Shown here piece by piece: positions 1 through 22,194 of a stretch of 25,697 nucleotides of DNA. The notes below the pieces were generated by a model, which ran no database searches, had not been told where the DNA came from, and worked only from the letters and a program-made list of their open reading frames with translations. The translations under genes and the position numbers were made by a program. Origin of the DNA: Nitrospinota bacterium (lineage in GTDB: Bacteria; Nitrospinota; Nitrospinia; Nitrospinales; VA-1); the NCBI GenBank assembly GCA_009873635.1, contig WAHY01000005.1:97564-123260 (forward strand). Reading direction: 5' to 3'. The first letter of the stretch is position 1. Every line of letters starts with the position of its first letter.

Positions 1-2737
1 GTTTCAAAGAACCTAGTTTTTTTGAAATCTCAGAGTTTAACCGAGTGACTTCTTTAAGATCCTGGTTGAGACGGTTGCCGATGTCTTCTCTTTGATTCCT
101 GGTGCTTCGCATGCTTCCCTGCCAACGAAATATTTCGGGGTATGTATTTTTAAATAGAACATTGAACTCATTCAAATCGTTTAGTTCGGCTAACTCGTTC
201 AGTGTTTCATACTTTTCCTTTATCATGGGCAGGCTTTCTTTGAATTTCTGAAACCCGCGTGTCCTGAGACTATCTTGTTCTGTAATAGATTGGGATAACT
301 GCTTGCGTGCATCATTGAGGGCTTTAAAGTTTTCGCCTAAATCTTCACTCAGGCTGGAATCGATAGTTTTTTGGCTCAAAGATTTTATCTTTTGCCTGAC
401 TTTTGTTTCTTCCTGCAAAAGCTCTCTCATTTTTATCATGGCTTTGTGTTCATCCAGGTATTTTGAATCTTTATCTAACAAATCCTGTATAGCGGCAACA
501 TCTTTAATCAGTTCATCAAAGAAACTTTTGATCGAAAATTCAAATTGCCTGGCTTGATCGGCACGTAGTTTTTGGTTTATTTCTGAGGTATTTTCGATAA
601 CTTGTTTTTGCTTTTTTTCCAATGACTCAAGTTTGGTTATAGATTCATCAATTTGCTCCATGACCTGGTTGTCTACTAATGAATCCATAGAGGAGCTAGC
701 CTGGTCTAACTGGTTTGAAAGTTCTCTCAGATCTTCAGCAACCTTTTTGAGTTGTTCCAGCGCTTCATCAATTTTTCCCTGATTAGCAAGGTCCTTGATT
801 TTTTCCAACGAAGCCATAGTATCTTCCAGGTTCATGCTCTTGTAGGATTTAGAGTTGAGAAACTCATCCGGTGTTGTCTGGTTCTGTCGGGAGAGTTTAT
901 CCATCATCTTCTGCAAGGTTTGCTGAATCTTGCTCAGCTTGGAATTGAGTTGATTGGAAGTGAGAGGTGATTTTTTATCACGAATATTTTCAAACTCTTC
1001 CCGCAGGGCTTCGGTTAATTGGGAAAGCTGGTCCTCAAGATCCATGACCTGTTCCATTTTCTGCCGGTTGGTCATTTTAATCAGATATAAAATATCCTGC
1101 TCCAGATGAGCGACCATTCTGTTATTAAGAACCGCAACTGAACCCGCATTGAAACCGGCAGGTGTTGGTTTTAAGATCGTGCCCTGTATTTTGTTAATGG
1201 TATTTATCTGATCTTCACGGATGGCTGTCAAACCTTTGATGATACTTGTTAAAAGCGTGAGGTAGGGGCGTGGGAAGTTGTCAAAGTCTTTAGCCTGGTC
1301 CCTTATACGCTGGGCAAGACCGATGATATCTATCAGTGCGTCTGAATGTGAAGAGAGAAGTTTTTTCCCAGAAAGCGGGTCGGTTGTCGTGGTTTTAAGA
1401 ATTTCTCCTTCAACAAGGCCGTTTGCCAGCAGGGCAATCATCTTTTCTGATAACTCTTCCTGGAGACGCACAAGGTTTTCCTGCTCTTTTCTACTATCAA
1501 AAATAACGAAACTATAAATTTCTGACTGGCCTGAGTTGGGACCGGTGACATTATCGTTATCTTTGACTTCCAGGAAGTATTGAACTTCATCACCAGGGTG
1601 CAAACTTTCCAGGGACAGGTTCCAGGAAAAGCTTCCCGTTGAATCCTTTTCCGGTTGTTTGAAGCGTTTAATGCTTTTCGTCAATGTGTCATTGTTGATT
1701 TGGGCGATCAGATCAATTTTGCTGATTCCAAAATCATCGTGGGATTCATAATACATCTGCACAGTGTCGGTTTCATAATAGACAGGTTTGGGGTTGGATG
1801 GAAACAGAATCACCTGGGGTGATTTATCCTGATCAAGCTCAATGGAATGTTTCTCTTTCAAAAGAACTTTTTCGCCATTGGGAGAAGTTATCCTGAATTG
1901 ATAATGTCCTTTTTCCCGCACCATGAAAGACCCTTTCAATTTTTTCAATTCCGTTACATCCATCAGAAAGTGGTCGCGGTTGTTCACTACTAATTCTGCT
2001 TCTTTTATTGGCAGGTTACTGTTACCGGTTATTTGTACTTCGGTGCCAGGGAGAGCTTTGAGTGGGCCTTTGGCCAAAATTTCTCTTTTCAGACTTGTGT
2101 ATGAAGGATATTCCAACTTTAGCATCAGGTCGCTTATATGATAATCGGTTTGTTGGTTTGTTAATTGCGGGGCTTTTTTATTTTCTTTCGGGGTAACCTG
2201 AGCCAACTTTTGCGGATCTGATAAAACCTTGAAGTCGGGCAATAATGCTGTGGCCAGGATTAAGGCAACAAGGGTAACCAGAAAAAGGTTGCGCGCTGGA
2301 ACAGCCCTTTGGCCACTGACTACTGATTCCGGGTCGATGTTCTGAATTTCAGATTGAGTGCGTTGGAGCTGCTCTCGAATGAAAGATAGAGAAAAGGTTT
2401 TATCTTGTGAGCTGGTCAAATGACGTTCCAATTGAACGGCATTGATCAGTGAATTATTCAATTCAGGATATTTTGCTTCAGTCAGGAGGGCGGCACGATC
2501 TTTGTCTATTCTGGATAGCCTGCAGGAAGAGTATAGTCCCAAGCCCAGTAATATTATGATTAGTCCGCACCAACCGTATTTCAAAAATGGGGATTGAAAA
2601 AAAGAAAATAGTCCGCTTATAAGAACATAACCGGCGATAATGGTAAATATGGAATAGGTGGCCTGAATGAATAGGACCCTGTTCCATTTAATCTTAACCC
2701 GGTTGAGAAAGTGGTGGATTTTTGAAGAGGTTTCCAT
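1..2737 (-). CDS. Large membrane-anchored coiled-coil protein, 3'-truncated by the window edge (>=912 aa in window). Architecture resembles the DUF4175 family (identification tentative).
   Basis: Manual translation of the minus strand from ATG (complement of 2735-2737) gives METSSKIHHFLNRVKIKWNRVLFIQATYSIFTIIAGYVLISGLFSFFQSPFLKYGWCGLIIILLGLGLYSS... This is two N-terminal hydrophobic helices followed by >800 aa of E/K/Q/L-rich, heptad-like sequence (e.g. ...LEKIKDLANQGKIDEALEQLKKVAEDLRELSNQLDQ...). I checked the frame at three points (around 2737-2460, 1202-1260 and 2-118) and found it consistent with no stop codon, so the ORF runs off position 1. It is absent from the ORF track because it is incomplete, and no competing long ORF exists on either strand. 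The family assignment is from memory of the architecture only. Confidence 0.6.
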   Translation of the reverse strand, partial: METSSKIHHFLNRVKIKWNRVLFIQATYSIFTIIAGYVLISGLFSFFQSPFLKYGWCGLIIILLGLGLYSSCRLSRIDKDRAALLTEAKYPELNNSLINAVQLERHLTSSQDKTFSLSFIREQLQRTQSEIQNIDPESVVSGQRAVPARNLFLVTLVALILATALLPDFKVLSDPQKLAQVTPKENKKAPQLTNQQTDYHISDLMLKLEYPSYTSLKREILAKGPLKALPGTEVQITGNSNLPIKEAELVVNNRDHFLMDVTELKKLKGSFMVREKGHYQFRITSPNGEKVLLKEKHSIELDQDKSPQVILFPSNPKPVYYETDTVQMYYESHDDFGISKIDLIAQINNDTLTKSIKRFKQPEKDSTGSFSWNLSLESLHPGDEVQYFLEVKDNDNVTGPNSGQSEIYSFVIFDSRKEQENLVRLQEELSEKMIALLANGLVEGEILKTTTTDPLSGKKLLSSHSDALIDIIGLAQRIRDQAKDFDNFPRPYLTLLTSIIKGLTAIREDQINTINKIQGTILKPTPAGFNAGSVAVLNNRMVAHLEQDILYLIKMTNRQKMEQVMDLEDQLSQLTEALREEFENIRDKKSPLTSNQLNSKLSKIQQTLQKMMDKLSRQNQTTPDEFLNSKSYKSMNLEDTMASLEKIKDLANQGKIDEALEQLKKVAEDLRELSNQLDQASSSMDSLVDNQVMEQIDESITKLESLEKKQKQVIENTSEINQKLRADQARQFEFSIKSFFDELIKDVAAIQDLLDKDSKYLDEHKAMIKMRELLQEETKVRQKIKSLSQKTIDSSLSEDLGENFKALNDARKQLSQSITEQDSLRTRGFQKFKESLPMIKEKYETLNELAELNDLNEFNVLFKNTYPEIFRWQGSMRSTRNQREDIGNRLNQDLKEVTRLNSEISKKLGSLK

Positions 2738-2841
2738 AAGCGCTGGTAATAATTCTTTGCTCTTCTAGTTTATTACAGCCCTGTTACGAATCCCAATGAA
2801 TAAAGTGGGCTGAAGTCAATGCGGCTTAAAACCGTATTTTA

Positions 2842-3691: not shown

Positions 3692-4501
3692 ATGTTACGT
3701 TTTCTAAATCGTTCTGCGTTAACCCTTGCAGCTTTGTTTTGTATGGTGTGCTCTTCAGAGGCACAACCCCTGTCGGTCTCCATACAGAACCAGGTGGATG
3801 ATGCTGGCAATGTTAAGCTGGAATTAACCTTGAAGAATTCAGGTGCCGAACCTGTTTATCATGTTCACCCGATGTTTCATTTCCACCACTCGATGTCAAT
3901 GATGACGAAAATTATGCGTCTGGATCCGGGGCAGAGCATAACCCTGGAAAACGACAAACATCCACCTGTGATGAGGGTTGGCAGGTATCCCCTGACTGCA
4001 ATGGTGGAATATTGGCTGGAACCCGATGGCGGGACAAAACAGTCGATTCTGGTCACTGACTCATTTTTTTTCAAGGAGCCTGTGGTATCTGAAGTGGATG
4101 GGAGCCTGAAATCCAAGACAGATATGGATTCCTCCATATTGAAAGTGTTTCTTCAAAATCGTTCAGAGTCCCTCAAAAATATAAGGATGATGCTTTTACT
4201 GCCCCCTGGCATAGAAGCGCAGGACTTTTCGGGAATAGTGGGATTTACCATGCGAGGAGGCGAATCAAGGGAGTTTGACATTCGAGTTTTTCGCCGGGAA
4301 AATCAAGAGCAGGATCGTTTTCCCGTACGCTTGATGATAGAATATGGTGAAATGCTTAAGCATTATTCAGAGGAAATTAATGGTTCGGTGAGATTTTCTC
4401 CGGTTTGGTATTCCGTAAAATATTTTCCGCATATTACTGCTTTGGTGATTATGGTCCTGGTTCTTTTGGGCTATTCTTACAGAGTTTATAACCAAAAATA
4501 G
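3692..4501 (+). CDS. Hypothetical exported protein with a C-terminal membrane anchor
   Basis: The 269-aa ORF has an N-terminal signal-peptide-like segment MLRFLNRSALTLAALFCMVCSSEA|QP. The C-terminus has a hydrophobic helix ITALVIMVLVLLGYSY followed by RVYNQK. I recognise no family from sequence. It is the first gene of a same-strand cluster with ppiC, msrA and ccp. Confidence 0.55.
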   Translation: MLRFLNRSALTLAALFCMVCSSEAQPLSVSIQNQVDDAGNVKLELTLKNSGAEPVYHVHPMFHFHHSMSMMTKIMRLDPGQSITLENDKHPPVMRVGRYPLTAMVEYWLEPDGGTKQSILVTDSFFFKEPVVSEVDGSLKSKTDMDSSILKVFLQNRSESLKNIRMMLLLPPGIEAQDFSGIVGFTMRGGESREFDIRVFRRENQEQDRFPVRLMIEYGEMLKHYSEEINGSVRFSPVWYSVKYFPHITALVIMVLVLLGYSYRVYNQK

Positions 4502-4514
4502 AAAGGATAGTTTT

Positions 4515-4793
4515 ATGACACAAGCGACAGCTAGGCATATCCTGGTTAAGTCCAAAGAAGCCTGTGAAGATTTGAAAAAGAAAATTGAGGGTGGGGCGGA
4601 TTTTGGAGATATGGCCAAGGAGCACTCTGAATGCCCTTCAGGAAGAGATGGGGGCAACCTCGGTTCTTTTGGCCCTGGCCAGATGGTTCCCGAGTTTGAT
4701 ACGGTTGTGTTTAATGAAGAAGTGGGTGCTGTCCACGGTCCCGTGCAGACTTCGTTTGGGTATCACCTGATCGAGATCACCAGCCGAAGTTAG
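4515..4793 (+). CDS. ppiC: Parvulin-type peptidyl-prolyl cis-trans isomerase PpiC
   Basis: The 92-aa product HILVKSKEACEDLKKKIEGGADFGDMAKEHSECPSGRDGGNLGSFGPGQMVPEFDTVVF...FGYHLIEI aligns residue-by-residue with E. coli PpiC (Par10, 93 aa). An SD-like aaagga lies 8 nt upstream. Confidence 0.9.
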   Translation: MTQATARHILVKSKEACEDLKKKIEGGADFGDMAKEHSECPSGRDGGNLGSFGPGQMVPEFDTVVFNEEVGAVHGPVQTSFGYHLIEITSRS

Positions 4794-4802
4794 GAGGAAG
4801 CT

Positions 4803-5270
4803 ATGGAATTGGCCACTTTTGGCGCGGGTTGTTTCTGGGGTGTGGAACTGGCTTTTCAAAAGACAAAAGGTGTGACATCCACTTCTGTAGGTTATACGGG
4901 TGGGACCACAAAAAACCCCACTTATGAAGACGTCTGTACAGGGCGCACCGGTCATGCAGAAGTGGTCCATATGGAGTTTGATCCCAATATCATCTCTTTT
5001 GATGAATTGCTTGAAGTGCTATGGACCTGTCACGATCCGACGACATTAAATCGGCAAGGTCCGGATATAGGCACCCAGTATCGTTCCGCGATTTTTTTTC
5101 ACTCACCGGAACAGGAAGTCTCTGCGAAAGCTTCAAGAGATAAAGCGGACCAATCGGGGCGCTTCAATGCTCCAATTGTTACGGAGATTACTCCTGCTTC
5201 AGAATATTATATTGCTGAAGACTACCACCAGAAATATCTCGAAAAACGAGGTATGGGTAGCTGCCATTAG
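4803..5270 (+). CDS. msrA: Peptide methionine sulfoxide reductase MsrA
   Basis: The 155-aa product contains the MsrA active-site signature [10 protein letters not shown], then GYTGG...NPTYEDVC...GHAEVV...FDP and YHQ(K)YL. An SD aggagg precedes the ATG. Confidence 0.9.
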
Positions 5271-5324
5271 AGATTAACGTCTATACTTTGTTTGAATGTT
5301 AATGTTTTGCCTGGGAGATATTTT

Positions 5325-6323
5325 ATGAAATGCATTTCTATTTTTACTCTTGCATGCATTATTGGTTTTTTTCCTGTTTCGACTTTTGCTGAAGATTCAT
5401 TCTATGAGCCCGTCCCGGCCATGAAATATCCATCCGATAATAAATGGTCCAAGGACAAGGAAGAACTGGGGAAAATGCTTTATTTTGATCCCCGGCTTTC
5501 CGGCAGCAACTGGATCAGTTGTGCCACATGTCATAATCCCGCATTAGGCTGGAGTGATGGATTGCCTCGAACCATTGGTCATGGCCAGAAAGAACTGGGC
5601 CGACATTCTCCCACAGTGATCAACAGTGGTTATTTTGCAGTGCAGATGTGGGATGGACGTAAAAAGACATTGGAAGATCAGGCTTCAGGACCCATTGGTG
5701 CGGCGGGTGAGATGAACCAGGATTATGATGAGCTGATTCGGGAATTGCAGGCGATTCCCGGTTACGTCGCTCATTTTGACAAGGTTTTTGGCAAGGATTC
5801 CATCACTATAGATAATGTTGCCAGGGCGATTGCCACCTTTGAACGTTCGGTGGTTTCGAAAAACGCGCCCTATGACAAATACTGGGCGGGAGATAAGACC
5901 GCGATGTCTGCTTCCGCAATAAACGGGATGAACCTGTTTTTTGGCAAGGCCAAGTGCTCCATTTGCCATAACGGCCCGGTGTTTACCGACAGCGGATTCC
6001 ATAATATTGGTGTCAAACCTGCTGGTCCCCTGAAAGTTGACCTGGGAAGATATAATGAAAGCAAAGATGACTTCGATAAAGGAGCATTCAAAACTCCGGG
6101 TTTGCGGAGCATCACAAGGTCGGCTCCTTATATGCATAATGGGACTGAATCAACACTTGAAGAAGTTGTCGATTTTTATAATCGGGGTGGGGATGTGAAA
6201 GAAAATATCAGCCCTTTTATAACTCCGTTGGGATTAAAAGATCAGGAAAAAAAGGATCTGGTTGAATTCTTGAAAGCTTTGGATGGGGAACCCATTCTTG
6301 TTACACTTCCAATCCTTCCCTGA
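5325..6323 (+). CDS. Di-haem cytochrome c peroxidase (CCP/MauG family), periplasmic
   Basis: Two CxxCH haem-binding motifs are present (CATCHNP and CSICHNGP), in the spacing and context typical of bacterial di-haem CCP. The first in-frame Met is at 5292. The signal peptide MKCISIFTLACIIGFFPVSTFA and a gggag SD favour the Met at 5325, so the start is ambiguous. Confidence 0.85.
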   Translation: MKCISIFTLACIIGFFPVSTFAEDSFYEPVPAMKYPSDNKWSKDKEELGKMLYFDPRLSGSNWISCATCHNPALGWSDGLPRTIGHGQKELGRHSPTVINSGYFAVQMWDGRKKTLEDQASGPIGAAGEMNQDYDELIRELQAIPGYVAHFDKVFGKDSITIDNVARAIATFERSVVSKNAPYDKYWAGDKTAMSASAINGMNLFFGKAKCSICHNGPVFTDSGFHNIGVKPAGPLKVDLGRYNESKDDFDKGAFKTPGLRSITRSAPYMHNGTESTLEEVVDFYNRGGDVKENISPFITPLGLKDQEKKDLVEFLKALDGEPILVTLPILP

Positions 6324-6410: not shown

Positions 6411-6842
6411 CTAGGATTGAGTGCGGTAGTATTTGAAGAGACTGACAGCTAAGGTGAACCAGCCTATCATAAAGCTGAGTCCCCCCAGGGGAGTGATGGG
6501 ACCAAAAAAACGCGGTCCATCAAATGTAAGAACGTAAAGACTGCCACAGAATAATAAAATGCCCACGCTGATCCACTGGGCAGAGCGTTTTAGTTTTGCG
6601 CTTATATCTTCACTCAGAACCAGCATCAGGATTCCAACTGCGATCAAGCCGAGGGCGTGATAGCCGAGGTAATCAGTAGCGGTGTGGAAGGTGGCGAGTT
6701 TCTTTTCAGTCAACCGGGCTTTTAAAGAATGTGCTCCAAACGCACCAAGCATGACACTCAATCCGGCAAGTCCTGCACCAAAAGAAATCCAACTGAGTCC
6801 TGATTGTTTATCACCGATTGAAGTCTTATCATTATCTTCCAT
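6411..6842 (-). CDS. DUF423 family small membrane protein (YgdD/TMEM256-like)
   Basis: The 143-aa ORF has four predicted TM segments. ...GAGLAGLSVMLGAFGAHSLK...YHALGLIAVGIL...LLFCGSLY...ITPLGGLSFMIGWFTLA is collinear with E. coli YgdD (GALGAFGAH..., YQ.FH..LAI, SGSLY, TPVGGVSFLAGW). Confidence 0.75.
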   Translation of the reverse strand: MEDNDKTSIGDKQSGLSWISFGAGLAGLSVMLGAFGAHSLKARLTEKKLATFHTATDYLGYHALGLIAVGILMLVLSEDISAKLKRSAQWISVGILLFCGSLYVLTFDGPRFFGPITPLGGLSFMIGWFTLAVSLFKYYRTQS

Positions 6843-6924: not shown

Positions 6925-8316
6925 CTAACCGACAATGTTATATCGTCTCGCCCGGTACTTCACCTCGAACTCACTATTTACAATATTTTCGCATTGAGCT
7001 TCATCCACGTTTTTCTGGTGCGTGACAATAGTAGCCTGCACTTCTGGGATATATTTTTTAGCCTCGGCAATAAAGTCTTTGATCTTGTCATAGATTCCGT
7101 TTCGGAACATCGGTAGCGGCTGACAGATTTCGTCATAAGCTTCCGAGGTATCTGTATTGAGGCTTACTGAAACTTCATCGATCAAACCTGAAAGTTCAGG
7201 GAGTATATTGCGTTTATTGATGACGTTTCCATGTCCATTGGTGTTCAGCCTCACACGTCCACCGGCATCTTTTATTTTTTTTGCAACTTCCTTGATGACA
7301 TTCAGTCTTAATGTCGGCTCACCAAATCCGCAAAAAACTATCTCGTCGTAATTTTTAACATCGTCGATCGATTCCCAGACTTCTTTTGCTGTGGGTTCCC
7401 GATCCAGTTTAAGGTTATAGCCTTGTACTACAGGCCGGGTCAACCGGGTGCAGAACACGCAATCTGCTGTGCAACGTTGCGTCAGGTTCAGGTAAAGGGA
7501 GTTGCGGATTTTATATGAAACGGTACCGGTTTTAGCATTATCGCCAATGCCGAAAAGCTCGAAGAAGTTGAGGGCCATGGTGCGTTGTACATCCTCAATT
7601 TTCAATCCGCGAATTTCTGCAAGTTTTTCTGCGGTGTAGTTCACATAAGCAGGTTCGTTGCGTTTGCCTCTGTGCGGAACAGGAGTCAGGTAAGGACAGT
7701 CGGTTTCCGCGAACAGTCGGTCCGCCGGAACAGTTTTTGCCACATCCCTCAGGGCTTCGGCTTTCTTAAAAGTTACTGAACCTGAAAAGGAGATATAAAA
7801 GCCCATTTCAAGAGCTTTATCGGCCAGATGCTGATCACCAGAAAAACAGTGGAAAATTCCTGAGTGCCCTGTAGGGTCTTTCGGGTAAAACTCTGACAAT
7901 ATGGCGATGATGTCTTCACTGGCATCCCGGCTATGCACGATGATCGGCTTGTTCATTTTCCGGGCAAGTTCTATCTGCTTGCGAAAATGGATTCGTTGTA
8001 CATCCTGAGGGGAATAGTTTTTGAAATAGTCCAGTCCTATCTCGCCCAGGGCGATGACTTTTGGATGCAGTAATAATTGTCGCAGGTGGGCGTAGGTTTC
8101 GTTGTCAATTGACTTGACATCGTGAGGATGAACACCTGCGGTTGCATAAATGAAGTCATACTGTTCCGACAGCTCCATGGAGCGGTAGCTGCTTTCAACA
8201 TCGCAACCGATATTGATCATATATTGTACGCCGTTCTCGCGTGCGCGTTCTATAACCGCTTCGCGATCTTCGTCATAACTGTCGACATCAATATGCGCGT
8301 GGGTATCAATGATCAT
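6925..8316 (-). CDS. Fusion protein: N-terminal TatD-family metal-dependent hydrolase (YcfH-like) plus C-terminal radical-SAM domain
   Basis: The 463-aa ORF has an N-terminus MIIDTHAHIDVDSYDEDREAVIERA...GVHPHDV...ALGEIGLDY...IIVHSRDA...FHCFSGD...FSGSVTFK...ETDCPYLTPVPHRG, which is the canonical TatD His/Asp/Glu metal-site pattern. From about residue 260 it continues LYLNLTQRCTADCVFCTR (a CX3CX2C radical-SAM cluster motif) ...VFCGFGEPTL...RLNTNG. Its start overlaps the metG stop by 4 nt (ATGA). Confidence 0.8.
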   Translation of the reverse strand: MIIDTHAHIDVDSYDEDREAVIERARENGVQYMINIGCDVESSYRSMELSEQYDFIYATAGVHPHDVKSIDNETYAHLRQLLLHPKVIALGEIGLDYFKNYSPQDVQRIHFRKQIELARKMNKPIIVHSRDASEDIIAILSEFYPKDPTGHSGIFHCFSGDQHLADKALEMGFYISFSGSVTFKKAEALRDVAKTVPADRLFAETDCPYLTPVPHRGKRNEPAYVNYTAEKLAEIRGLKIEDVQRTMALNFFELFGIGDNAKTGTVSYKIRNSLYLNLTQRCTADCVFCTRLTRPVVQGYNLKLDREPTAKEVWESIDDVKNYDEIVFCGFGEPTLRLNVIKEVAKKIKDAGGRVRLNTNGHGNVINKRNILPELSGLIDEVSVSLNTDTSEAYDEICQPLPMFRNGIYDKIKDFIAEAKKYIPEVQATIVTHQKNVDEAQCENIVNSEFEVKYRARRYNIVG

Positions 8317-10235
8317 TTTACCTGGATTCCTTGAGCGGGTTCCTCATCGAATCCTGCCAGCAGAATTTTTCCGTCGTTGCTTGCCGCCAGAACCATGCCC
8401 TGAGATTCGATGCCCATTAACTTTGCAGGCTTCAGGTTGGCTACGATGATAACTGTTCGTCCAATGAGATTTTCCGGTTCGTAGCTTTCAGCTATTCCAG
8501 CCAGTACCTGCCGGGTCTCATTGCCGATATCAATTTTTAGTTGAATGAGTTTTTTCGATTTTTTAACTTTTTCCGCTTCGAGTATTTTCCCTGTTCGAAG
8601 ATCGACCTTCATGAACTCATCGATAGTTATTTGATTCTCTGTCTCTTTCTTTTCAGCTTTTGGTTCGGCGAGTTCAGCGAGAATTTTTTCGGCCTGTTTG
8701 TCTTCGATTCTTGGAAATAATTGTTTTGCTTTCTGTGTCTGACCACCCGGTTTTAACCCGCCCCATTCGTTAACGGATTTCATATCTTGTTCTTCTGCTG
8801 AATCTTCAATCCCCAATTGTTTGATGAGAGAGTTCATGCTCTCCGGCATGAACGGACTCAACAAAACTCCCAGGATTCGGAGAGACTCTGCAGAGTTATA
8901 CATCACGGTTTTTAACCGTTCTTTACCCTCATCTGTTTTTGCCAGATTCCATGGTCCTGTTTTGTCGATGTATTGATTGGTGGTGTCTACCAGTTCCCAG
9001 ATTTTTTGAAGGATTTTGTTGTAGGCCAGTTCGTTATAGAGCTTGCGTACTTCGTCAACAACTTCTGTGGCTTTTTCTTTTAGTGGAGCATCTTCAGAGC
9101 CTTCAGTGGCAGGGCTGGGGATGACACTACCGCAATATTTTTTCATCATATTGACGGTTCGGTTTAACAGGTTTCCAAGATTGTTAGCCAGGTCGCTGTT
9201 AAGCCTTCCTATGAGTGCTTTATGTGAAAAGTCTCCGTCCAGCCCAAAAGGAACTTCACGAAGAAGGAAATAGCGGATGACATCTACACCAAACGTGTCA
9301 ATCAGCTTGTTTGGTTCAACCACATTGAATAAAGACTTGGACATCTTTTGTCCATTCACCGTCCACCAACCGTGCGCGAAAATGTTTTTGGGGGGTTCCA
9401 GTCCGATCGCTTTCAGCATGGTGGACCAATACACAGCGTGCGTGGTGAGAATATCTTTACCAACCATATTGTGGTCTGCAGGCCAGAAGCCGGATGCCTT
9501 GATGTCGTCCAATGAGCCATGGATGGAAATATAGTTAATCAACGCATCAAACCATACGTAGGTAACATATTCCTCGTCGAAGGGGAGGGGGATTCCCCAG
9601 GGTAGCCGCGACTTGGGGCGCGAGATACATAAGTCTTCAAGCGGTTTATCGAGAAAACCGAGCACTTCATTTTTTCGTGATGCCGGCAGGATAAAATGCG
9701 GGTCACTTTTAATCCTGTCAACCAGCCATTGCTGGTAGTTACCCATTCGAAAAAAATAATTATGTTCTTTGATTTTGTCGACTTTGCGTCTGCACTCCGG
9801 GCAGTTATTTTCTGCCAGGTCTTTTTCGGTCCAGAACCGTTCGCAGGGAGTGCAGTACCATCCTTCATAACTATCCCTGTAAATTTCATCCCTGGAATGA
9901 AGATCCTGAAGAATGTCACGAACCAGTTTTTTATGTCTTTCTTCGGTGGTGCGAATGAAGTCGCTATTAGAGATATTCAGCCGTACCCAGAGCTCTTTGA
10001 ATCGCTGGTGTAGTTTGTCTACATGTTCCTGGGGTTCCACCCCTAAATCAGTGGCGGCTTGCTGAACTTTTTGGCCATGCTCATCTGTTCCTGTCAAAAA
10101 AAAGACTTCATAGCCCTCCAGGCGTTTATACCTTGCAACAACATCTGCTGCGATGGTTGTGTATGCATGGCCTATATGAGGGACATCATTAACGTAATAA
10201 ATTGGAGTGGTGATATAAAATTTGTTTTGTGACAT
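8313..10235 (-). CDS. metG: Methionyl-tRNA synthetase with a C-terminal tRNA-binding (EMAP/Trbp111-like) domain
   Basis: The 640-aa ORF has the class-I signatures PIYYVNDVPHIGHAYTT (HIGH) and QKMSKSLFN (KMSKS). The C-terminal ~100 aa (...DLRTGKILEAEKV...KLMGIESQGMVLAA...) is typical of the MetRS C-terminal tRNA-binding domain. Confidence 0.93.
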   Translation of the reverse strand: MSQNKFYITTPIYYVNDVPHIGHAYTTIAADVVARYKRLEGYEVFFLTGTDEHGQKVQQAATDLGVEPQEHVDKLHQRFKELWVRLNISNSDFIRTTEERHKKLVRDILQDLHSRDEIYRDSYEGWYCTPCERFWTEKDLAENNCPECRRKVDKIKEHNYFFRMGNYQQWLVDRIKSDPHFILPASRKNEVLGFLDKPLEDLCISRPKSRLPWGIPLPFDEEYVTYVWFDALINYISIHGSLDDIKASGFWPADHNMVGKDILTTHAVYWSTMLKAIGLEPPKNIFAHGWWTVNGQKMSKSLFNVVEPNKLIDTFGVDVIRYFLLREVPFGLDGDFSHKALIGRLNSDLANNLGNLLNRTVNMMKKYCGSVIPSPATEGSEDAPLKEKATEVVDEVRKLYNELAYNKILQKIWELVDTTNQYIDKTGPWNLAKTDEGKERLKTVMYNSAESLRILGVLLSPFMPESMNSLIKQLGIEDSAEEQDMKSVNEWGGLKPGGQTQKAKQLFPRIEDKQAEKILAELAEPKAEKKETENQITIDEFMKVDLRTGKILEAEKVKKSKKLIQLKIDIGNETRQVLAGIAESYEPENLIGRTVIIVANLKPAKLMGIESQGMVLAASNDGKILLAGFDEEPAQGIQVK

Positions 10236-10252: not shown

Positions 10253-11122
10253 TCAGGGTTTTTGAGAGTTTTTTGAATCCTGATTTTTTGGCAGTTCGTC
10301 TAGAGAATAGGTCATTACGTTTTCATCTTCCAGTAAAACCACGACACGTTGTTCCAGTATTTCAACTTTGAGGACACGTCCTGGTCCTTCCGGTGTATTG
10401 ATATGACTGTTTATCTTGGGAAGGTTTTTGATCAAACCCTTGTAATTATCGTGTTCATATTGCAGGCAACACATCAAACGTCCGCATACTCCGGATATCT
10501 TGCTTGGGTTCAGAGCCATCCCCTGGTTCTTAGCCATTTTAATAGTCACAGGTGTGAAATCAGGGAGCCAGGTGGAACAACAAAGAGTTTCACCACAAAC
10601 TCCATAGCCTCCTATAACCCTGGCTTCGTCACGCACTCCCACCTGCTTCATCTCAATGCGGTGTCGCAAGTTGGCTGCAAGGTCGCGAATCAATTGGCGA
10701 AAGTCTACCCTTCCTTCAGCAGTAAAAAAGAAAATTGTTTTATTCATATGTGGTTGATGCACCACTCTGCTAAGGTTCATAGGCAGTTCCAGCTCTGAGA
10801 TTTTTGCCAGGCAAAGGGACTTGGCTTTTTCCTCTACCTGCTTCCGCCTGTTTTCCGCTTGATAATCGTTATCATTGGCAATGCGTAATACTCTGTTCTC
10901 CTGGCTGTCTTTGCGAAAATTCAAAACCTTGTTTGAGGCCACCACACCCATTTTCAAACCCTGGGAGGTATTGACCATTACAGTCATTCCGACTTTGAGT
11001 TTCAGGCTTCCCGGGTCATAAAGTTCTGATTTGATCTGGTCAATAATGCGTATTCCAATCACAAACTTTGGCGGTTGCCTGGAAGAAGAGCTCTCGGGTT
11101 TATCTTTAACGGCAGTGTTCAT
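10253..11122 (-). CDS. PSP1 C-terminal domain protein (RicT/YaaT-like)
   Basis: The 289-aa ORF has Cys-rich blocks GYGVCGETLCCSTWL and GVCGRLMCCLQYE, which are characteristic of PSP1/YaaT. Its position immediately downstream of holB matches the widespread holB-yaaT arrangement. Confidence 0.8.
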   Translation of the reverse strand: MNTAVKDKPESSSSRQPPKFVIGIRIIDQIKSELYDPGSLKLKVGMTVMVNTSQGLKMGVVASNKVLNFRKDSQENRVLRIANDNDYQAENRRKQVEEKAKSLCLAKISELELPMNLSRVVHQPHMNKTIFFFTAEGRVDFRQLIRDLAANLRHRIEMKQVGVRDEARVIGGYGVCGETLCCSTWLPDFTPVTIKMAKNQGMALNPSKISGVCGRLMCCLQYEHDNYKGLIKNLPKINSHINTPEGPGRVLKVEILEQRVVVLLEDENVMTYSLDELPKNQDSKNSQKP

Positions 11123-11127
11123 AAGTT

Positions 11128-12147
11128 CTATGCAGCCTCACAAAAGTTGATGAGCATATTTTCAAGAAACAACTGAGCATTGGCGTTGCCAGACAAAGCT
11201 TTCTGGGTATTGCGGACAGCTTTGAATCGATCTGCCCACCCTTTTGAACTGCAGGTTTGCGCTATTGGGATCATCCTTGCTGATAAGTCCCTGTTTTGGA
11301 TATCTGCCTGGCCACATCCGGAGCGGTAAAGGGCCAAGTCCCTTATCAATCCCAACAACTCATCTAAAACAGCCTGGAGTTTTTCTGTATTCTTGGCCCA
11401 GGCTTTGGCAAAGGAGAAGACAATATCCATCCGGTCGAAAGATACTTTTTCAAGAACTTCGAGTAATTGTTCCCGCAGGTGTTCAACCTCGGCGATATCT
11501 TCAGACAGCGCTCGTTTAACGCTTCCTTGTGAACGTTGGACACGAAAATCAGTTTCAGTTTCTGAAAATGATTCCCCATCTTCCTGAAGTTGAGACTGAA
11601 TGATCGTTCTAATATCTGATGAAGACAGGCGGTGAAATTGTACTCCCTGGCATCTGGAGATCAGGGTTGGCAATAATCTGCTGGGGTTTGCAGAGATGAG
11701 TATCAAAACCGTTGAAGAGGGTGGTTCCTCCAGGGTTTTTAAAAACGAGTTCATGGCCTGTGTGTTCATAAGTTCAGCGGAATCGATCACTACAACTTTT
11801 GTTTTCCCCTCATAGGGCATATAGGATAATTTTTTTTGTAGATCTCGAATGGTTTCTATTTTAATAGCCGCTTCCCTTGCAGTTGGGGTGGTTTTTGTCG
11901 GCTCAAGATAGAAAAAATCCGGATGAATTTCTCGAGCAATTTTTTCACAAGAATCGCATTCATCACAAGAGTCTAATGGGCCTTTAGTTTTGCAATTAAG
12001 TGCCTTTGCCAAAGTATTGGCCAGCATTTTTTTTCCAACGCTATCCGGCCCATAAAACAAATAGGCGTGTGCAACACTGTTGTTTTGGAGTGCATTGGTC
12101 AGTATTTTTTTTGGCTGGGACTGGCCCAGAATCGACTTGAATGACAT
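11128..12147 (-). CDS. holB: DNA polymerase III delta-prime subunit
   Basis: The 339-aa ORF begins with HAYLFYGPDSVGK (an AAA+ clamp-loader P-loop-like motif) followed by a CxxC...C zinc-module-like stretch. Its length and its holB–yaaT–metG–tatD neighbourhood favour delta-prime over tau, but the tau/gamma N-terminal domain is similar. Confidence 0.75.
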   Translation of the reverse strand: MSFKSILGQSQPKKILTNALQNNSVAHAYLFYGPDSVGKKMLANTLAKALNCKTKGPLDSCDECDSCEKIAREIHPDFFYLEPTKTTPTAREAAIKIETIRDLQKKLSYMPYEGKTKVVVIDSAELMNTQAMNSFLKTLEEPPSSTVLILISANPSRLLPTLISRCQGVQFHRLSSSDIRTIIQSQLQEDGESFSETETDFRVQRSQGSVKRALSEDIAEVEHLREQLLEVLEKVSFDRMDIVFSFAKAWAKNTEKLQAVLDELLGLIRDLALYRSGCGQADIQNRDLSARMIPIAQTCSSKGWADRFKAVRNTQKALSGNANAQLFLENMLINFCEAA

Positions 12148-19862: not shown

Positions 19863-19940
19863 TTATAGCTTCTTAAAGATCAGAATACCTCATTAAAAAT
19901 CTTTATCTTTATGTATTTTATTTTAATAAAGTTTAGTTGG
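19863..19940. repeat. Copy A of a ~78-nt AT-rich imperfect direct repeat (partner at 24783-24861)
   Basis: Copy A reads ttatagcttcttaaagatcagaatacctcattaaaaatctttatctttatgtattttattttaataaagtttagttgg. Copy B reads ttatagtttcttaatgatcatcatatctcattaaaaaatctttatctgtatgtattttatttttataagattttaatgg. Identity is about 83% overall. The core ctcattaaaaa(a)tctttatct[t/g]tatgtattttatttt is about 38 nt with 1 mismatch and 1 indel. Copy A lies in the convergent gap between atpC and the KamA-like gene, and its last 8 nt overlap the 3' end of the KamA-like CDS. Confidence 0.8.
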
Positions 19941-22194
19941 GTGAATCAGGTTCTAAATTTGTGAACTTCGAAGTGGCTTTGAATTGATATTCAGGATATT
20001 CATATACTGGCATTCGAGGTTCTGTTCTCCCAATAGAATACCCCCAAATACTAGTGTATTCTGAGACATCTTCACCCATTTCTTCAAGATTCTTTAGGTA
20101 TTCACTAATAGATTTGGATTCAATGATAATCACTTTCCCCATTTTATTGATAATGGGGCTGTGTAGTCTATTTGCGTCATGCTCGAATTCCAAAATTCGC
20201 CGGCCATAACGCGTAATTCCAATGACTCTAAATGATAAGCTTTTTCCTATGCCTGGTAAATTGAGGATATTCCGGTCGGTAGATAGAAACGGCAAATTAG
20301 CCGAGCACCTTAACTTCTCTATATTCTTCACCATATTTTCAGCTTCAAGTGAAAATTGGTGGATTTTTGATTTAGTTTTTTCAGGGAGCAGACCAAAAAC
20401 CTTTTCTTCCATTTGTTCTTGAACAGCCCGCGCATTGGTGGCAAAGTTATGTTGGTTCTCCATATATCCTTTTGTGGAAAAAGTGTAGTATCCAAGCACT
20501 CCGATTTTATTCAAGATTTTTCTGAGTTTGGCAGTATGGCCTCTTCGTGAAGATGCCGTGGTCAATACATGTTGGTTGGTTAAAGTCCATCCCGCGGAAA
20601 TAAGTTTTCTGATTCCTTCCCGGGCTTCAGGGGTTACTTCCATCGGGCATTCAAAATGAGTTTGTACGAAGAATTGTGTGATACCGATTTTGGATGCCTT
20701 GGATTTGAATTCGGCCAGAATTTTGACAAGTTTATTGGTGATTCGTTGAGGAATATAGACCGGAAGGCGCGTTCCCAGCCTGACCCGAACGATCTCGGCA
20801 TATTTGTCGCCCTCATTCCTTGATTTATTTGCCTCTTTTTTCCGGGTGGCCATTTGATAAATAGCCTCCAATACCTCATGAAGAGACTTATCCGAACTCA
20901 TCAAGGCATCACCGCCGGTAATTAAAATATCCCGAAGCTGTGAATCGTTTTCAAAATAATCCATCAGACACTTCAGTTTTTCAGGCCAGGTTTTCTTAGG
21001 TTGAAGTTTATTCAAATCAAAATTAAGACGACCACTTTGAAAATCGTACATTCTTTGACAGGATTGGCATAAACCCCCACAGGCTCTGCCTACAGTATCC
21101 GGGATCAAAATAGCGACTTCGGGGTAACGCCTATGAACGTTGTTGTGTGTGGGCAATAACCAACCGGCCGCGTTAGGTTTTCCAGGTTCAACTTTGTCTT
21201 CTTTCTCCCAAGCCACGATATTGCCGAATTCTTCGACAAGTTGTTTGCTATAAATTACATAATCCCTAATGGCCAAATCCGCTCCAATGGCAAAGTATGG
21301 GGCCTTGATATGGAGTAAAGATAAGTAGTAAGGGTTTACAAAAAATGGTACCCCCGCGTTTTTTGCGCTTTTTAAAATTTGCATTGTGTCCGGGTCGAGC
21401 GAGTATCCAAGCATTTCATTCAACAGGCCGGGAGAACGTATGGCAAAGTTGAGATGAAAATGGCTGTCATTCCACCATTTCATTGCGGTTGAATATTTCT
21501 CTTCTGGTGACAGACCTGGTTCAAACTTGAAACTTCTACTGGAAATTTCGCCATTTTCCATTTTGGCAATTATAATTTTAAGTATTCGCTCCTTATTTTC
21601 TTCCCTCAATTGGACGATTCGAGAATCAAGGCCGGAAGGCCATCGATCCATCCACTTCTCAATCATGTTTCTGGTTGGAGGTTGATGAGCCATTTCTCCC
21701 CTCAGTTGCCTGAATAAATAAATCATGTCTTCAAAAAAATAAGGTTTAGCTCCTCCGATCCCATGTCTCGCTGCCAGCCAAACCATCTTGATGGGGTTAT
21801 TGATAGCAATTTCACCTCTTAAATTTAAGTCTTCAAATTCCCTTCCCGCGTTATTGATATAGTCCAGTAACCTTATTGATGCATAATCCGGCCATTTGAT
21901 AGACTCGAACGTTTTTCTATCAACATATTCCTTTTTATAAAAATCTAGTGCTTCAGGGTTTTCTTCAAGAACTCCCATGATCCAGTTTCTAACTTCCTCA
22001 AGCGCTTCAATTTCATTTTTTGTTTTTTTCATTATTTTATCTAAATCGGGATTTTCCTGAAGGAGTTGTTTGAGCAGGTTATGTGATTTGGGATCTATGG
22101 AGATTTTATCCAACTCTTGGTTGCTTGGAGAGATATCATCACATCTTTTCATAGAAATGGTGGTCGTTTGCAACATGGTTTTCCTCGTTTTCAT
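19933..22194 (-). CDS. KamA-family (lysine/amino-acid 2,3-aminomutase-like) radical-SAM protein, unusually large, with about 225 aa of extra N-terminal and about 130 aa of extra C-terminal sequence
   Basis: The 753-aa ORF has a central region that matches hallmark KamA blocks. VPFFVNPYYLSLL corresponds to ITPYYLSLI of clostridial LAM. HRRYPEVAILIPDTVGRACGGLCQSCQRM corresponds to [26 protein letters not shown] and contains the CX3CX2C motif. LRDILITGGDAL corresponds to VRDVLLSGGDAL. The N-terminal ~225 aa and C-terminal ~130 aa match nothing I recognise. The first ATG has no SD. The second Met (residue 7) is preceded by aggaaa, so the true start may be 22176. Confidence 0.8.
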   Translation of the reverse strand: MKTRKTMLQTTTISMKRCDDISPSNQELDKISIDPKSHNLLKQLLQENPDLDKIMKKTKNEIEALEEVRNWIMGVLEENPEALDFYKKEYVDRKTFESIKWPDYASIRLLDYINNAGREFEDLNLRGEIAINNPIKMVWLAARHGIGGAKPYFFEDMIYLFRQLRGEMAHQPPTRNMIEKWMDRWPSGLDSRIVQLREENKERILKIIIAKMENGEISSRSFKFEPGLSPEEKYSTAMKWWNDSHFHLNFAIRSPGLLNEMLGYSLDPDTMQILKSAKNAGVPFFVNPYYLSLLHIKAPYFAIGADLAIRDYVIYSKQLVEEFGNIVAWEKEDKVEPGKPNAAGWLLPTHNNVHRRYPEVAILIPDTVGRACGGLCQSCQRMYDFQSGRLNFDLNKLQPKKTWPEKLKCLMDYFENDSQLRDILITGGDALMSSDKSLHEVLEAIYQMATRKKEANKSRNEGDKYAEIVRVRLGTRLPVYIPQRITNKLVKILAEFKSKASKIGITQFFVQTHFECPMEVTPEAREGIRKLISAGWTLTNQHVLTTASSRRGHTAKLRKILNKIGVLGYYTFSTKGYMENQHNFATNARAVQEQMEEKVFGLLPEKTKSKIHQFSLEAENMVKNIEKLRCSANLPFLSTDRNILNLPGIGKSLSFRVIGITRYGRRILEFEHDANRLHSPIINKMGKVIIIESKSISEYLKNLEEMGEDVSEYTSIWGYSIGRTEPRMPVYEYPEYQFKATSKFTNLEPDSPN

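What the first reader, a model, noticed from the sequence alone, without database searches (positions are those of the whole stretch)
6925..8316. TatD-family hydrolase fused in one polypeptide to a radical-SAM domain, translationally coupled to metG
A canonical YcfH/TatD metallo-hydrolase domain (about residues 1-255) continues without a stop into a domain with CTADCVFC (CX3CX2C) and downstream glycine-rich radical-SAM-like motifs. The whole ORF overlaps the metG stop (ATGA), in the conserved holB–metG–tatD neighbourhood. From memory, a model exists for 'TatD-associated radical SAM' proteins, so the pairing has been noticed before. As far as I know, neither the substrate of the rSAM half nor the reason for coupling it to a nuclease-like hydrolase next to MetRS is established. 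A covalent fusion is the strongest form of that association.
Basis: partly seen in the sequence, partly recalled or inferred. Interest (0 to 1): 0.55.

Follow-up and report, generated by a model that had tools for sequence, protein, structure and literature searches.

The report
TatD nuclease fused to radical-SAM domain
This is a real two-domain gene, a housekeeping TatD/YcfH-type nuclease joined to a small radical-SAM enzyme, but it belongs to a family already in the databases (TIGR04038 / IPR023821), fusion is that family's usual form, and only its biochemical function is still unknown.

Summary
A 463-aa ORF on the minus strand (6925..8316) has a full TatD domain (residues 3-256, E 2e-89). 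It runs without a stop into a full-length match to NCBIfam TIGR04038, "TatD family nuclease-associated radical SAM protein" (residues 265-460, 250 bits against a cutoff of 130). The CX3CX2C and FCGFGEP motifs are present. The start codon overlaps the metG stop (ATGA), in a holB–PSP1–metG–tatD-rSAM–DUF423 gene row.

The fusion is neither an artefact nor a rarity.
- More than 100 Nitrospina-like proteins of 461-465 aa have the same architecture.
- 72 of the 80 best species-representative loci, from roughly ten phyla, are fused. Two are split adjacent genes and six are free-standing.
- 83 of the top 150 clusters at 50% identity are fused-size.

My best inference, at low to moderate confidence, is that both halves work on one nucleic-acid substrate. 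The radical-SAM half would abstract a hydrogen at a lesion or modified nucleotide, and the TatD half would then hydrolyse. The finding is already catalogued. Interest is modest.

The parts
6925..8316 (-). Complete tatD–radical-SAM fusion ORF, 463 aa plus stop
   Evidence: ORF list and translation. (two domains in one polypeptide).
7549..8310 (-). TatD / YcfH-type metal-dependent nuclease domain (residues 3-256), class II with an HxH motif
   Evidence: Pfam PF01026, E 2.4e-89. TIGR00010, 302 bits. Closest solved chains are S. aureus TatD/YcfH 2gzx and 6l25 (E 2e-67) and E. coli YcfH 1yix (E 1e-56), ahead of E. coli TatD (E 9e-39).
8293..8301 (-). HxH metal-binding motif (H6-A-H8 in DTHAHID)
   Evidence: Translation. 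H6, H8, E92, H128, H156 and D206 are conserved across 72 fused homologues.
7525..7548 (-). Short inter-domain linker (residues 257-264, IGDNAKTG), with no stop and no internal Met
   Evidence: pLDDT stays at or above about 90 through the junction in the full-length model.
6937..7524 (-). Radical-SAM domain of family TIGR04038 (residues 265-460), a minimal partial (beta/alpha)6 core
7450..7473 (-). CX3CX2C [4Fe-4S] cluster motif, CTADCVFC (C282, C286, C289)
   Evidence: Read. The three Cys are invariant or at least 90% conserved in the alignments.
7315..7335 (-). GGE-like SAM-binding motif FCGFGEP (F328-P334), including the invariant extra Cys329
   Evidence: Read. F328, C329, G330, E333 and P334 are invariant and G332 is at least 90% conserved.
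8313..8316 (-). ATGA overlap of the metG stop with the tatD-rSAM start (translational coupling)
   Evidence: The same 4-nt overlap is present in all 7 Nitrospinota loci, L001-L007.
8313..10235 (-). metG (methionyl-tRNA synthetase with a C-terminal tRNA-binding domain), immediately upstream
   Evidence: Pfam tRNA-synt_1g, E 7e-109, plus tRNA_bind. MetG lies upstream in 35 of the 80 related loci.
10253..12147 (-). PSP1/RicT-like gene (10253..11122) and holB (11128..12147), the upstream members of the conserved gene row
   Evidence: PSP1 is present in 30 related loci and HolB in 25.
6411..6842 (-). DUF423 membrane protein directly downstream. No terminator-like site lies between it and the fusion gene.
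   Evidence: DUF423 follows the fusion gene in 5 Nitrospinota loci.

Best explanation
Shown: this is the housekeeping, metG-linked YcfH/YabD-type TatD gene of a Nitrospina-like bacterium. Its C-terminus carries the radical-SAM domain of the catalogued family TIGR04038 / IPR023821. Both halves keep all the residues needed for catalysis. For the TatD half these are the metal ligands H6, H8, E92, H128, H156 and D206. For the radical-SAM half they are the cluster Cys282, Cys286 and Cys289, the G330-x-G332-E333-P334 SAM motif, and the RxNTNG and SxSL strands. The fused gene is vertically inherited across many phyla.

Inferred: the radical-SAM half binds a [4Fe-4S] cluster and cleaves SAM to a 5'-deoxyadenosyl radical. 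It is a minimal, open partial barrel with no accessory or substrate-capping domain, so it probably acts on a macromolecule. That macromolecule is most likely the same polynucleotide that the TatD half cuts.

The specific version I favour is nucleic-acid damage or 3'-end processing. The radical step would abstract a hydrogen from a lesion or modified nucleotide that hydrolysis alone cannot resolve. The TatD 3'-5' exonuclease / AP-endonuclease activity would then remove or trim the product.

The identity and architecture part is about 0.97 certain. The same-substrate, nucleic-acid repair mechanism is a hypothesis, and the confidence below refers to it.
For: Domain calls are above curated cutoffs.

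The fusion recurs:
- 72 of 80 species-representative loci from Nitrospinota, Nitrospirota, Planctomycetota, Omnitrophota, Desulfuromonadales, Bacteroidota/Ignavibacteria, Acidobacteriota and others;
- more than 100 Nitrospinota proteins of 461-465 aa;
- 83 of the top 150 clusters at 50% identity.

When the gene is split, tatD sits immediately upstream in the same order (L053 and L071; L090). TatD is the only fusion partner seen. Catalytic residues of both halves are 95-100% conserved in the fused set.

E. coli YcfH has 3'-exonuclease activity on ssDNA and AP-endonuclease activity on dsDNA, and the triple tatD/yjjV/ycfH mutant is H2O2-sensitive (PMC10085689).
Against: There is no biochemical or genetic data on any TIGR04038 member.

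Six gammaproteobacterial and several other free-standing members have no tatD within 4-6 kb, and their neighbours vary. The radical-SAM enzyme can therefore work without physical linkage to TatD.

Fold and sequence similarity to characterised radical-SAM enzymes is only generic: 9-21% identity, with the best PDB sequence hit RlmN at E 2e-4.

The relative position of the two active sites could not be inspected, because no coordinates or PAE are returned. The other four AF2 models scored lower (pLDDT 85.8-89.7).

YcfH is also reported to deacylate D-aminoacyl-tRNA (PMC10711561 citing Wydau 2009). With metG coupling, that favours a tRNA substrate instead.
Confidence: 0.4

Rival explanations
1. 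tRNA-directed enzyme. The TatD half would work as a YcfH/Dtd3-type D-aminoacyl-tRNA deacylase or tRNA 3'-end esterase. The radical-SAM half would act on the same (aminoacyl-)tRNA, for example by modifying a tRNA nucleotide as RlmN does, or by abstracting the C-alpha hydrogen of a mis-charged residue as an epimerase does.
Against: The holB–PSP1–metG–tatD row is a general housekeeping gene string, not a functional operon signature. About half of the fused loci lack metG upstream. The RlmN and EpeE similarities are at the level of the generic radical-SAM core: 23-25 bits in NCBIfam against cutoffs of 290-300. The RlmN-type Cys upstream of the cluster motif is absent.
Confidence: 0.2
2. Regulatory Fe-S module. 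The radical-SAM-like domain would mainly serve as a redox, O2 or SAM sensor that switches the TatD nuclease on or off, rather than performing turnover chemistry on a substrate.
For: Many nucleic-acid repair enzymes carry non-catalytic [4Fe-4S] clusters (general knowledge). The carriers are mostly anaerobes or microaerophiles. quotes the suggestion that TatD nuclease activities probably need regulation.
Against: Beyond the three cluster Cys, the SAM-binding GGE-like motif and many other core positions are invariant across phyla, and equally so in free-standing members that have no TatD to regulate. That pattern points to a working enzyme.
Confidence: 0.1
3. Protein-directed activase or maturase. 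Like PFL-activating enzyme, the radical-SAM half would install a radical or a post-translational modification on a protein, either the attached TatD domain or another target.
Against: Scores against the PFL-AE and NrdG models are far below their cutoffs: 18.8 against 231.75, and 26.4 against 131.15. There is no glycyl-radical enzyme in the window. No conserved partner protein appears in 80 loci. TatD has no known radical or modified residue.
Confidence: 0.08
4. Part of an anti-phage defence system, either a Qat-like TatD nuclease or a viperin-like radical-SAM enzyme.
Against: These are family-level similarities only. NCBIfam QatD scores 104 bits against a cutoff of 230. There are no QatA/B/C neighbours. 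The gene sits in a conserved housekeeping row, and its tree tracks taxonomy.
Confidence: 0.02
5. The fusion is an assembly or sequencing artefact, caused by a lost stop codon or a frameshift between two adjacent genes.
For: Split adjacent tatD and rSAM genes do exist in a few lineages (L053, L071, L090).
Against: The same uninterrupted ORF of 461-465 aa is found in more than 100 independent Nitrospinota assemblies and in 72 of 80 species across phyla. The linker is short and is modelled with high confidence.
Confidence: 0.01

Closest known systems
NCBIfam TIGR04038 (tatD_link_rSAM) / InterPro IPR023821, 'TatD family nuclease-associated radical SAM protein'
   Same: The match covers the full model length above the curated cutoff. 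It has the same motifs, the same association with TatD, and the same roughly 195-aa minimal core as the free-standing and split members tested.
   Different: Nothing material. This protein is an ordinary fused member. The family has no experimentally assigned function.
E. coli YcfH, B. subtilis YabD and S. aureus SAV0491 (class II HxH TatD nucleases; PDB 1yix, 6l25, 2gzx)
   Same: The N-terminal 256 residues align end to end (E 1e-56 to 2e-67). All metal ligands are present, and the gene lies in the holB/metG-linked position.
   Different: Those proteins stop after the TatD barrel, whereas this one continues into a radical-SAM domain. It scores below NCBI's equivalog cutoff for E. coli YcfH (223 against 438 bits).
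Pyruvate formate-lyase activating enzyme (PDB 3c8f), the nearest solved fold for the C-terminal half
   Different: Identity is only 15%, and the TIGR02493 score is 18.8 against a cutoff of 231.75. There is no glycyl-radical enzyme partner.
TIGR04100 (rSAM_pair_X) family radical-SAM proteins
   Same: This is the second-best model. It aligns over the full length (165.6 bits), so it is the sister family.
   Different: The score is below that family's cutoff of 262 bits. TIGR04100 is also uncharacterised ('hypoth_equivalog').
Spore photoproduct lyase (radical-SAM DNA repair), a functional analogy only
   Different: Identity is 9%, it ranks 28th, and SPL is much larger (340 aa) with a DNA-binding extension. 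Nothing here suggests membership.

Membership tests
TIGR04038 / IPR023821 TatD-associated radical SAM | HMM score above the curated cutoff, with full-length model coverage | tested here: met
   249.6 bits against a cutoff of 129.7; model positions 1-192 of 192; residues 265-460.
TIGR04038 / IPR023821 TatD-associated radical SAM | Fused to, or adjacent to, a TatD-family hydrolase | tested here: met
   The TatD domain (residues 3-256) is in the same ORF. The same arrangement is seen in 72 of 80 related loci.
Radical SAM superfamily (PF04055) | CX3CX2C cluster-binding motif | tested here: met
   C282-TAD-C286-VF-C289. Conserved in the family alignments.
Radical SAM superfamily (PF04055) | SAM-binding GGE-type motif and ribose-motif strand | tested here: met
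   G330-F-G332-E333-P334, and S383-x-S385-L386. G330, E333, P334, S383 and S385 are invariant; G332 and L386 are at least 90% conserved. Pfam score is 58.6 bits against a cutoff of 29.5.
Radical SAM superfamily (PF04055) | Binds a [4Fe-4S] cluster and reductively cleaves SAM | not testable with these tools
   Needs anaerobic purification, UV-vis and EPR spectroscopy, and a 5'-deoxyadenosine assay.
TatD family, YcfH/YabD subfamily (TIGR00010, PF01026), class II | HMM score above cutoff, and an N-terminal HxH motif rather than (G/A)xN | tested here: met
   TIGR00010, 302.4 bits against 206. H6-A-H8. The class definition comes from PMC10085689.
TatD family, YcfH/YabD subfamily (TIGR00010, PF01026), class II | Complete set of metal-ligand and catalytic residues | tested here: met
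   H6, H8, E92, H128, H156, E204 and D206 are present and 95-100% conserved in 72 fused homologues.
E. coli YcfH equivalog (NF008075) | Score above the equivalog cutoff | tested here: not met
   223.4 bits against a cutoff of 438. This is a subfamily-level relative, not a strict equivalog.
Glycyl-radical-enzyme activases (PFL-AE TIGR02493, NrdG TIGR02495) | HMM score above cutoff and a glycyl-radical enzyme partner | tested here: not met
   18.8 bits against 231.75, and 26.4 against 131.15. No glycyl-radical enzyme in the window or as a recurrent neighbour.
QatABCD defence system (QatD) | QatD score above cutoff, plus QatA/B/C neighbours | tested here: not met
   104.4 bits against a cutoff of 230. 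The neighbours are metG and DUF423. PADLOC gives only generic hits.

The most novel reading that the evidence does not exclude
The radical-SAM half performs a direct radical reversal or repair on the macromolecule that the TatD half would otherwise degrade. One example is breaking a C-C lesion in DNA, such as a 5',8-cyclopurine that forms preferentially at low oxygen, as spore photoproduct lyase does for its substrate. Another is re-inverting or otherwise repairing a mis-charged D-aminoacyl-tRNA, using conserved Cys329 or Cys442 as hydrogen-atom donor. In either case the TatD half would supply a hydrolytic back-up. This would finally assign a physiological role to the near-universal YcfH/YabD branch of TatD proteins.
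Probability: 0.12. Interest if true: 0.8.

Novelty: already known. Interest (0 to 1): 0.3.

Why it matters
YcfH/YabD-type TatD proteins are among the most widely conserved bacterial proteins that still lack an agreed physiological role. In-vitro activities reported so far include 3'-exonuclease, AP endonuclease and D-aminoacyl-tRNA deacylase. In at least several hundred species, this housekeeping gene is welded to a dedicated radical-SAM enzyme. That makes the fusion a strong 'guilt by fusion' clue, because whatever the radical-SAM half acts on is probably the true substrate class of the TatD half. The clue is not new, since the family has been catalogued. What is missing is biochemistry. This window adds one more ordinary member and does not make the question easier to answer than existing database entries already do.

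Tried and rejected
1. Artefactual fusion. Rejected, because the same ORF recurs in more than 100 assemblies and in 72 of 80 species.
3. A conserved third partner gene. Clustering all ORFs of the 80 loci found only the upstream housekeeping genes (MetG 35 loci, PSP1 30, HolB 25, and one further upstream gene family in 12), and nothing recurrent downstream.
4. Context of free-standing members as a functional clue. The neighbours vary: a YhcC-like radical-SAM gene plus U32 peptidases, TauD, an Exo_endo_phos nuclease, URO-D/DAO, cmk, citrate synthase. No consistent signal emerged.
5. Alternative fusion partners. None was seen among the top 150 representative clusters. The longer proteins are low-complexity extensions or insertions.
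6. Defence-system membership. Rejected.
7. Glycyl-radical activase. Rejected.
8. Literature. Three searches found no functional study of TIGR04038 / IPR023821, only one passing mention.
9. Rfam and tRNA scans of the window found nothing.
10. I could not inspect the inter-domain geometry, because model coordinates and PAE are not returned.

Full report
**Observation**

The window has a 463-codon ORF at 6925..8316 on the minus strand. It starts with ATG and has no internal stop. Reverse-complementing the sequence shows three things:
- The ATG (8316..8314) overlaps the TGA of the upstream gene (8315..8313), giving ATGA.
- Residues 282-289 read CTADCVFC (7450..7473).
- Residues 328-334 read FCGFGEP (7315..7335).

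The upstream gene (8313..10235) is methionyl-tRNA synthetase with a C-terminal tRNA-binding domain. Further upstream lie a PSP1/RicT-like gene and holB, and a DUF423 membrane protein follows downstream, all on the minus strand. No terminator-like site separates the fusion gene from DUF423. The only addition is the strand.

**What the two halves are**

Pfam gives TatD_DNase over residues 3-256 (E 2.4e-89) and Radical_SAM over residues 277-435 (E 1.1e-15).

NCBIfam gives TIGR00010, the YchF/TatD family DNA exonuclease, at 302 bits against a cutoff of 206. It also gives TIGR04038 'TatD family nuclease-associated radical SAM protein' over residues 265-460. That match covers all 192 model positions at 249.6 bits against a cutoff of 129.7. 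The model type 'subfamily_domain' fits a unit that occurs inside larger proteins. InterPro lists the family as IPR023821.

The TatD half is of the YcfH/YabD type:
- Its best solved relatives are the S. aureus TatD/YcfH chains 2gzx and 6l25 (E 2e-67), T. maritima 1j6o, and E. coli YcfH 1yix (E 1e-56).
- These are well ahead of E. coli TatD (E 9e-39) and YjjV (E 1e-33).
- It carries the class II HxH motif defined in PMC10085689.
- It scores below NCBI's strict equivalog cutoff for E. coli YcfH (223 against 438 bits).

**Is the fusion real, and how common is it?**

A search with the radical-SAM half returned 2800 relatives. The top hits are 91-93% identical and come from Nitrospina/Nitrospinaceae MAGs.

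A search with the whole protein listed 120 proteins as its best hits. All are 461-465 aa with both Pfam domains, and they include entries already named 'YchF/TatD family DNA exonuclease' or 'radical SAM protein' in NCBI.

I classified the best 80 loci:
- 72 carry TatD and the radical-SAM domain in one ORF. They come from Nitrospinota, Nitrospirota/Thermodesulfovibrionia, Planctomycetota, Omnitrophota, Desulfuromonadales including Geobacter and Geomonas, Bacteroidota/Ignavibacteria, Acidobacteriota, Zixibacteria, Verrucomicrobiota and Firestonebacteria.
- 2 Elusimicrobia loci have tatD and the radical-SAM gene as separate, adjacent, same-order genes.
- 6 Gammaproteobacteria loci (Thiodiazotropha, Sedimenticola and others) have a free-standing gene of about 200 aa with no tatD within 6 kb.

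A further split example is L090, ordered RNase E/G – tatD – rSAM – YabE-like.

An exhaustive profile search of 1.84 billion representative proteins found 511 clusters at E ≤ 1e-30. Of the best 150, 83 are fused-size, about 42 are complete free-standing proteins, and the rest are fragments. No other fusion partner appeared. Free-standing and split members all pass the TIGR04038 cutoff.

A neighbour-joining tree of the radical-SAM domains largely follows taxonomy. The free-standing gammaproteobacterial genes form one clade, and the split Elusimicrobia pair is nested among fused genes. Fusion is therefore the prevailing, vertically inherited state, not an extreme case and not an artefact.

The 4-nt metG overlap is conserved in all seven Nitrospinota loci. 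In other phyla the gap ranges from overlapping to more than 1 kb.

**Are both halves functional?**

Across the 72 fused homologues plus the window, the TatD ligands H6, H8, E92, H128, H156, E204 and D206 are 95-100% conserved. So are C282, C286, C289, F328-C329-G330-x-G332-E333-P334, R356, T359, G361 and S385.

The same radical-SAM positions are invariant in alignments that include free-standing members. An invariant extra cysteine (C329, just before the GGE-like motif) and a near-invariant one (C442) are notable but unexplained.

**Structure**

AlphaFold2 on a 90-sequence alignment gave pLDDT 93.3 and pTM 0.90 for the full protein. Confidence is high through the 8-residue linker. The other four models scored 85.8-89.7.

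The isolated C-terminal half gave pLDDT 93.4 and is a partial (beta/alpha)6 barrel with nothing appended.
- Foldseek gives the same generic set at TM 0.56-0.69, normalised to the query.
- The best PDB sequence hit is RlmN at E 2e-4.

The half is a bona fide but minimal radical-SAM core with no close characterised relative. The open core resembles enzymes that act on macromolecules. Coordinates and PAE are not returned, so I could not check whether the two active sites face a common groove.

**Context clues**

Clustering all ORFs in the 80 loci recovered only the housekeeping row upstream: MetG in 35 loci, PSP1 in 30, HolB in 25, and one further upstream gene family (about 215 aa) in 12. No recurrent downstream or accessory gene appeared.

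Free-standing members have heterogeneous neighbours. PADLOC gives only family-level hits to QatD and pVip. The window has no glycyl-radical enzyme.

**Literature**

No paper in the held library addresses the function of this family. For the TatD half:
- E. coli YcfH shows 3'-exonuclease activity on ssDNA and AP-endonuclease activity on dsDNA, and the triple tatD/yjjV/ycfH mutant is H2O2-sensitive (PMC10085689).
- YcfH is also cited as having D-aminoacyl-tRNA hydrolysing activity and as the closest E. coli relative of cyanobacterial Dtd3 (PMC10711561).

**Mechanism**

Shown: a two-domain polypeptide, both domains under strong purifying selection with their catalytic motifs intact. It is vertically inherited, TatD is its only fusion partner, and no other partner gene is conserved.

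Inferred: the C-terminal half binds a [4Fe-4S] cluster, cleaves SAM and abstracts a hydrogen from a macromolecular substrate. Fusion, and conserved gene order where the genes are split, argue that this substrate is the same polynucleotide that TatD hydrolyses.

I favour a nucleic-acid damage or 3'-end processing role, with a radical step on a lesion followed by TatD trimming. My confidence is about 0.4 for the same-substrate nucleic-acid idea as a whole. The main rival is a tRNA or aminoacyl-tRNA substrate (about 0.2), which draws support from the metG coupling and the reported deacylase activity. Lesser rivals are:
- a regulatory Fe-S module (0.1);
- a protein-directed activase (0.08);
- a defence role (0.02);
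- an artefact (0.01).

**Novelty and verdict**

The protein is an ordinary fused member of a curated family, and near-identical sequences are already deposited. The finding is correct but already known. The open question, what the TatD-associated radical-SAM enzyme does and hence what YcfH-type TatD proteins are really for, is genuine and experimentally approachable. This window adds no new leverage on it. Interest is 0.3.

Noticed in passing
window 19933..22194 (minus strand): A 753-aa ORF with a second radical-SAM signature in the window (CGGLCQSC, then ITGGDALM). It has no Pfam hit at E ≤ 1e-4. It matches the KamA-family aminomutase model TIGR00238 over residues 240-598 at 155 bits, below the 199-bit cutoff. 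It carries about 235 extra N-terminal and about 150 extra C-terminal residues, so it is an atypical, extended KamA-like protein.
   Followed up: partly
window 2..2764 (minus strand): A large ORF (at least 921 aa) runs off the left end of the window. It has no Pfam or NCBIfam match at all.
   Followed up: partly
window 3692..4501 (plus strand): A 269-aa ORF with a hydrophobic, signal-like N-terminus and no Pfam or NCBIfam family.
   Followed up: partly
window 4515..6323 (plus strand): A PpiC-type rotamase, MsrA and a di-haem cytochrome c peroxidase form an oxidative-stress-flavoured trio that converges on the tatD-rSAM/DUF423 gene row. I did not examine whether this juxtaposition is conserved.
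   Followed up: no
L052 5989..9434; L083 1281..7472; L084: In sulfur-oxidising Gammaproteobacteria the free-standing TIGR04038 gene lies beside a YhcC-like radical-SAM gene (Radical_SAM + Radical_SAM_C) and two U32-peptidase genes (UbiU/UbiV-like). In L083 and L084 it overlaps a TauD dioxygenase gene.
   Followed up: partly
L086 / L087 6001..7437: A free-standing TIGR04038 gene is convergent with an Exo_endo_phos (ExoIII/AP-endonuclease family) gene about 50 nt away. That is a different nuclease family next to the same radical-SAM enzyme.
   Followed up: no
L090 3..2936: A split arrangement, RNase E/G – tatD – rSAM (4-nt overlap) – DUF348/3D (YabE-like). It recalls, from memory, the Firmicutes metS–yabD–yabE gene order.
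   Followed up: partly
L001-L007, junction of metG and tatD-rSAM: The ATGA stop/start overlap seen in the window is conserved in all seven Nitrospinota loci. In other phyla the metG–tatD gap varies from overlapping to more than 1 kb.
   Followed up: yes
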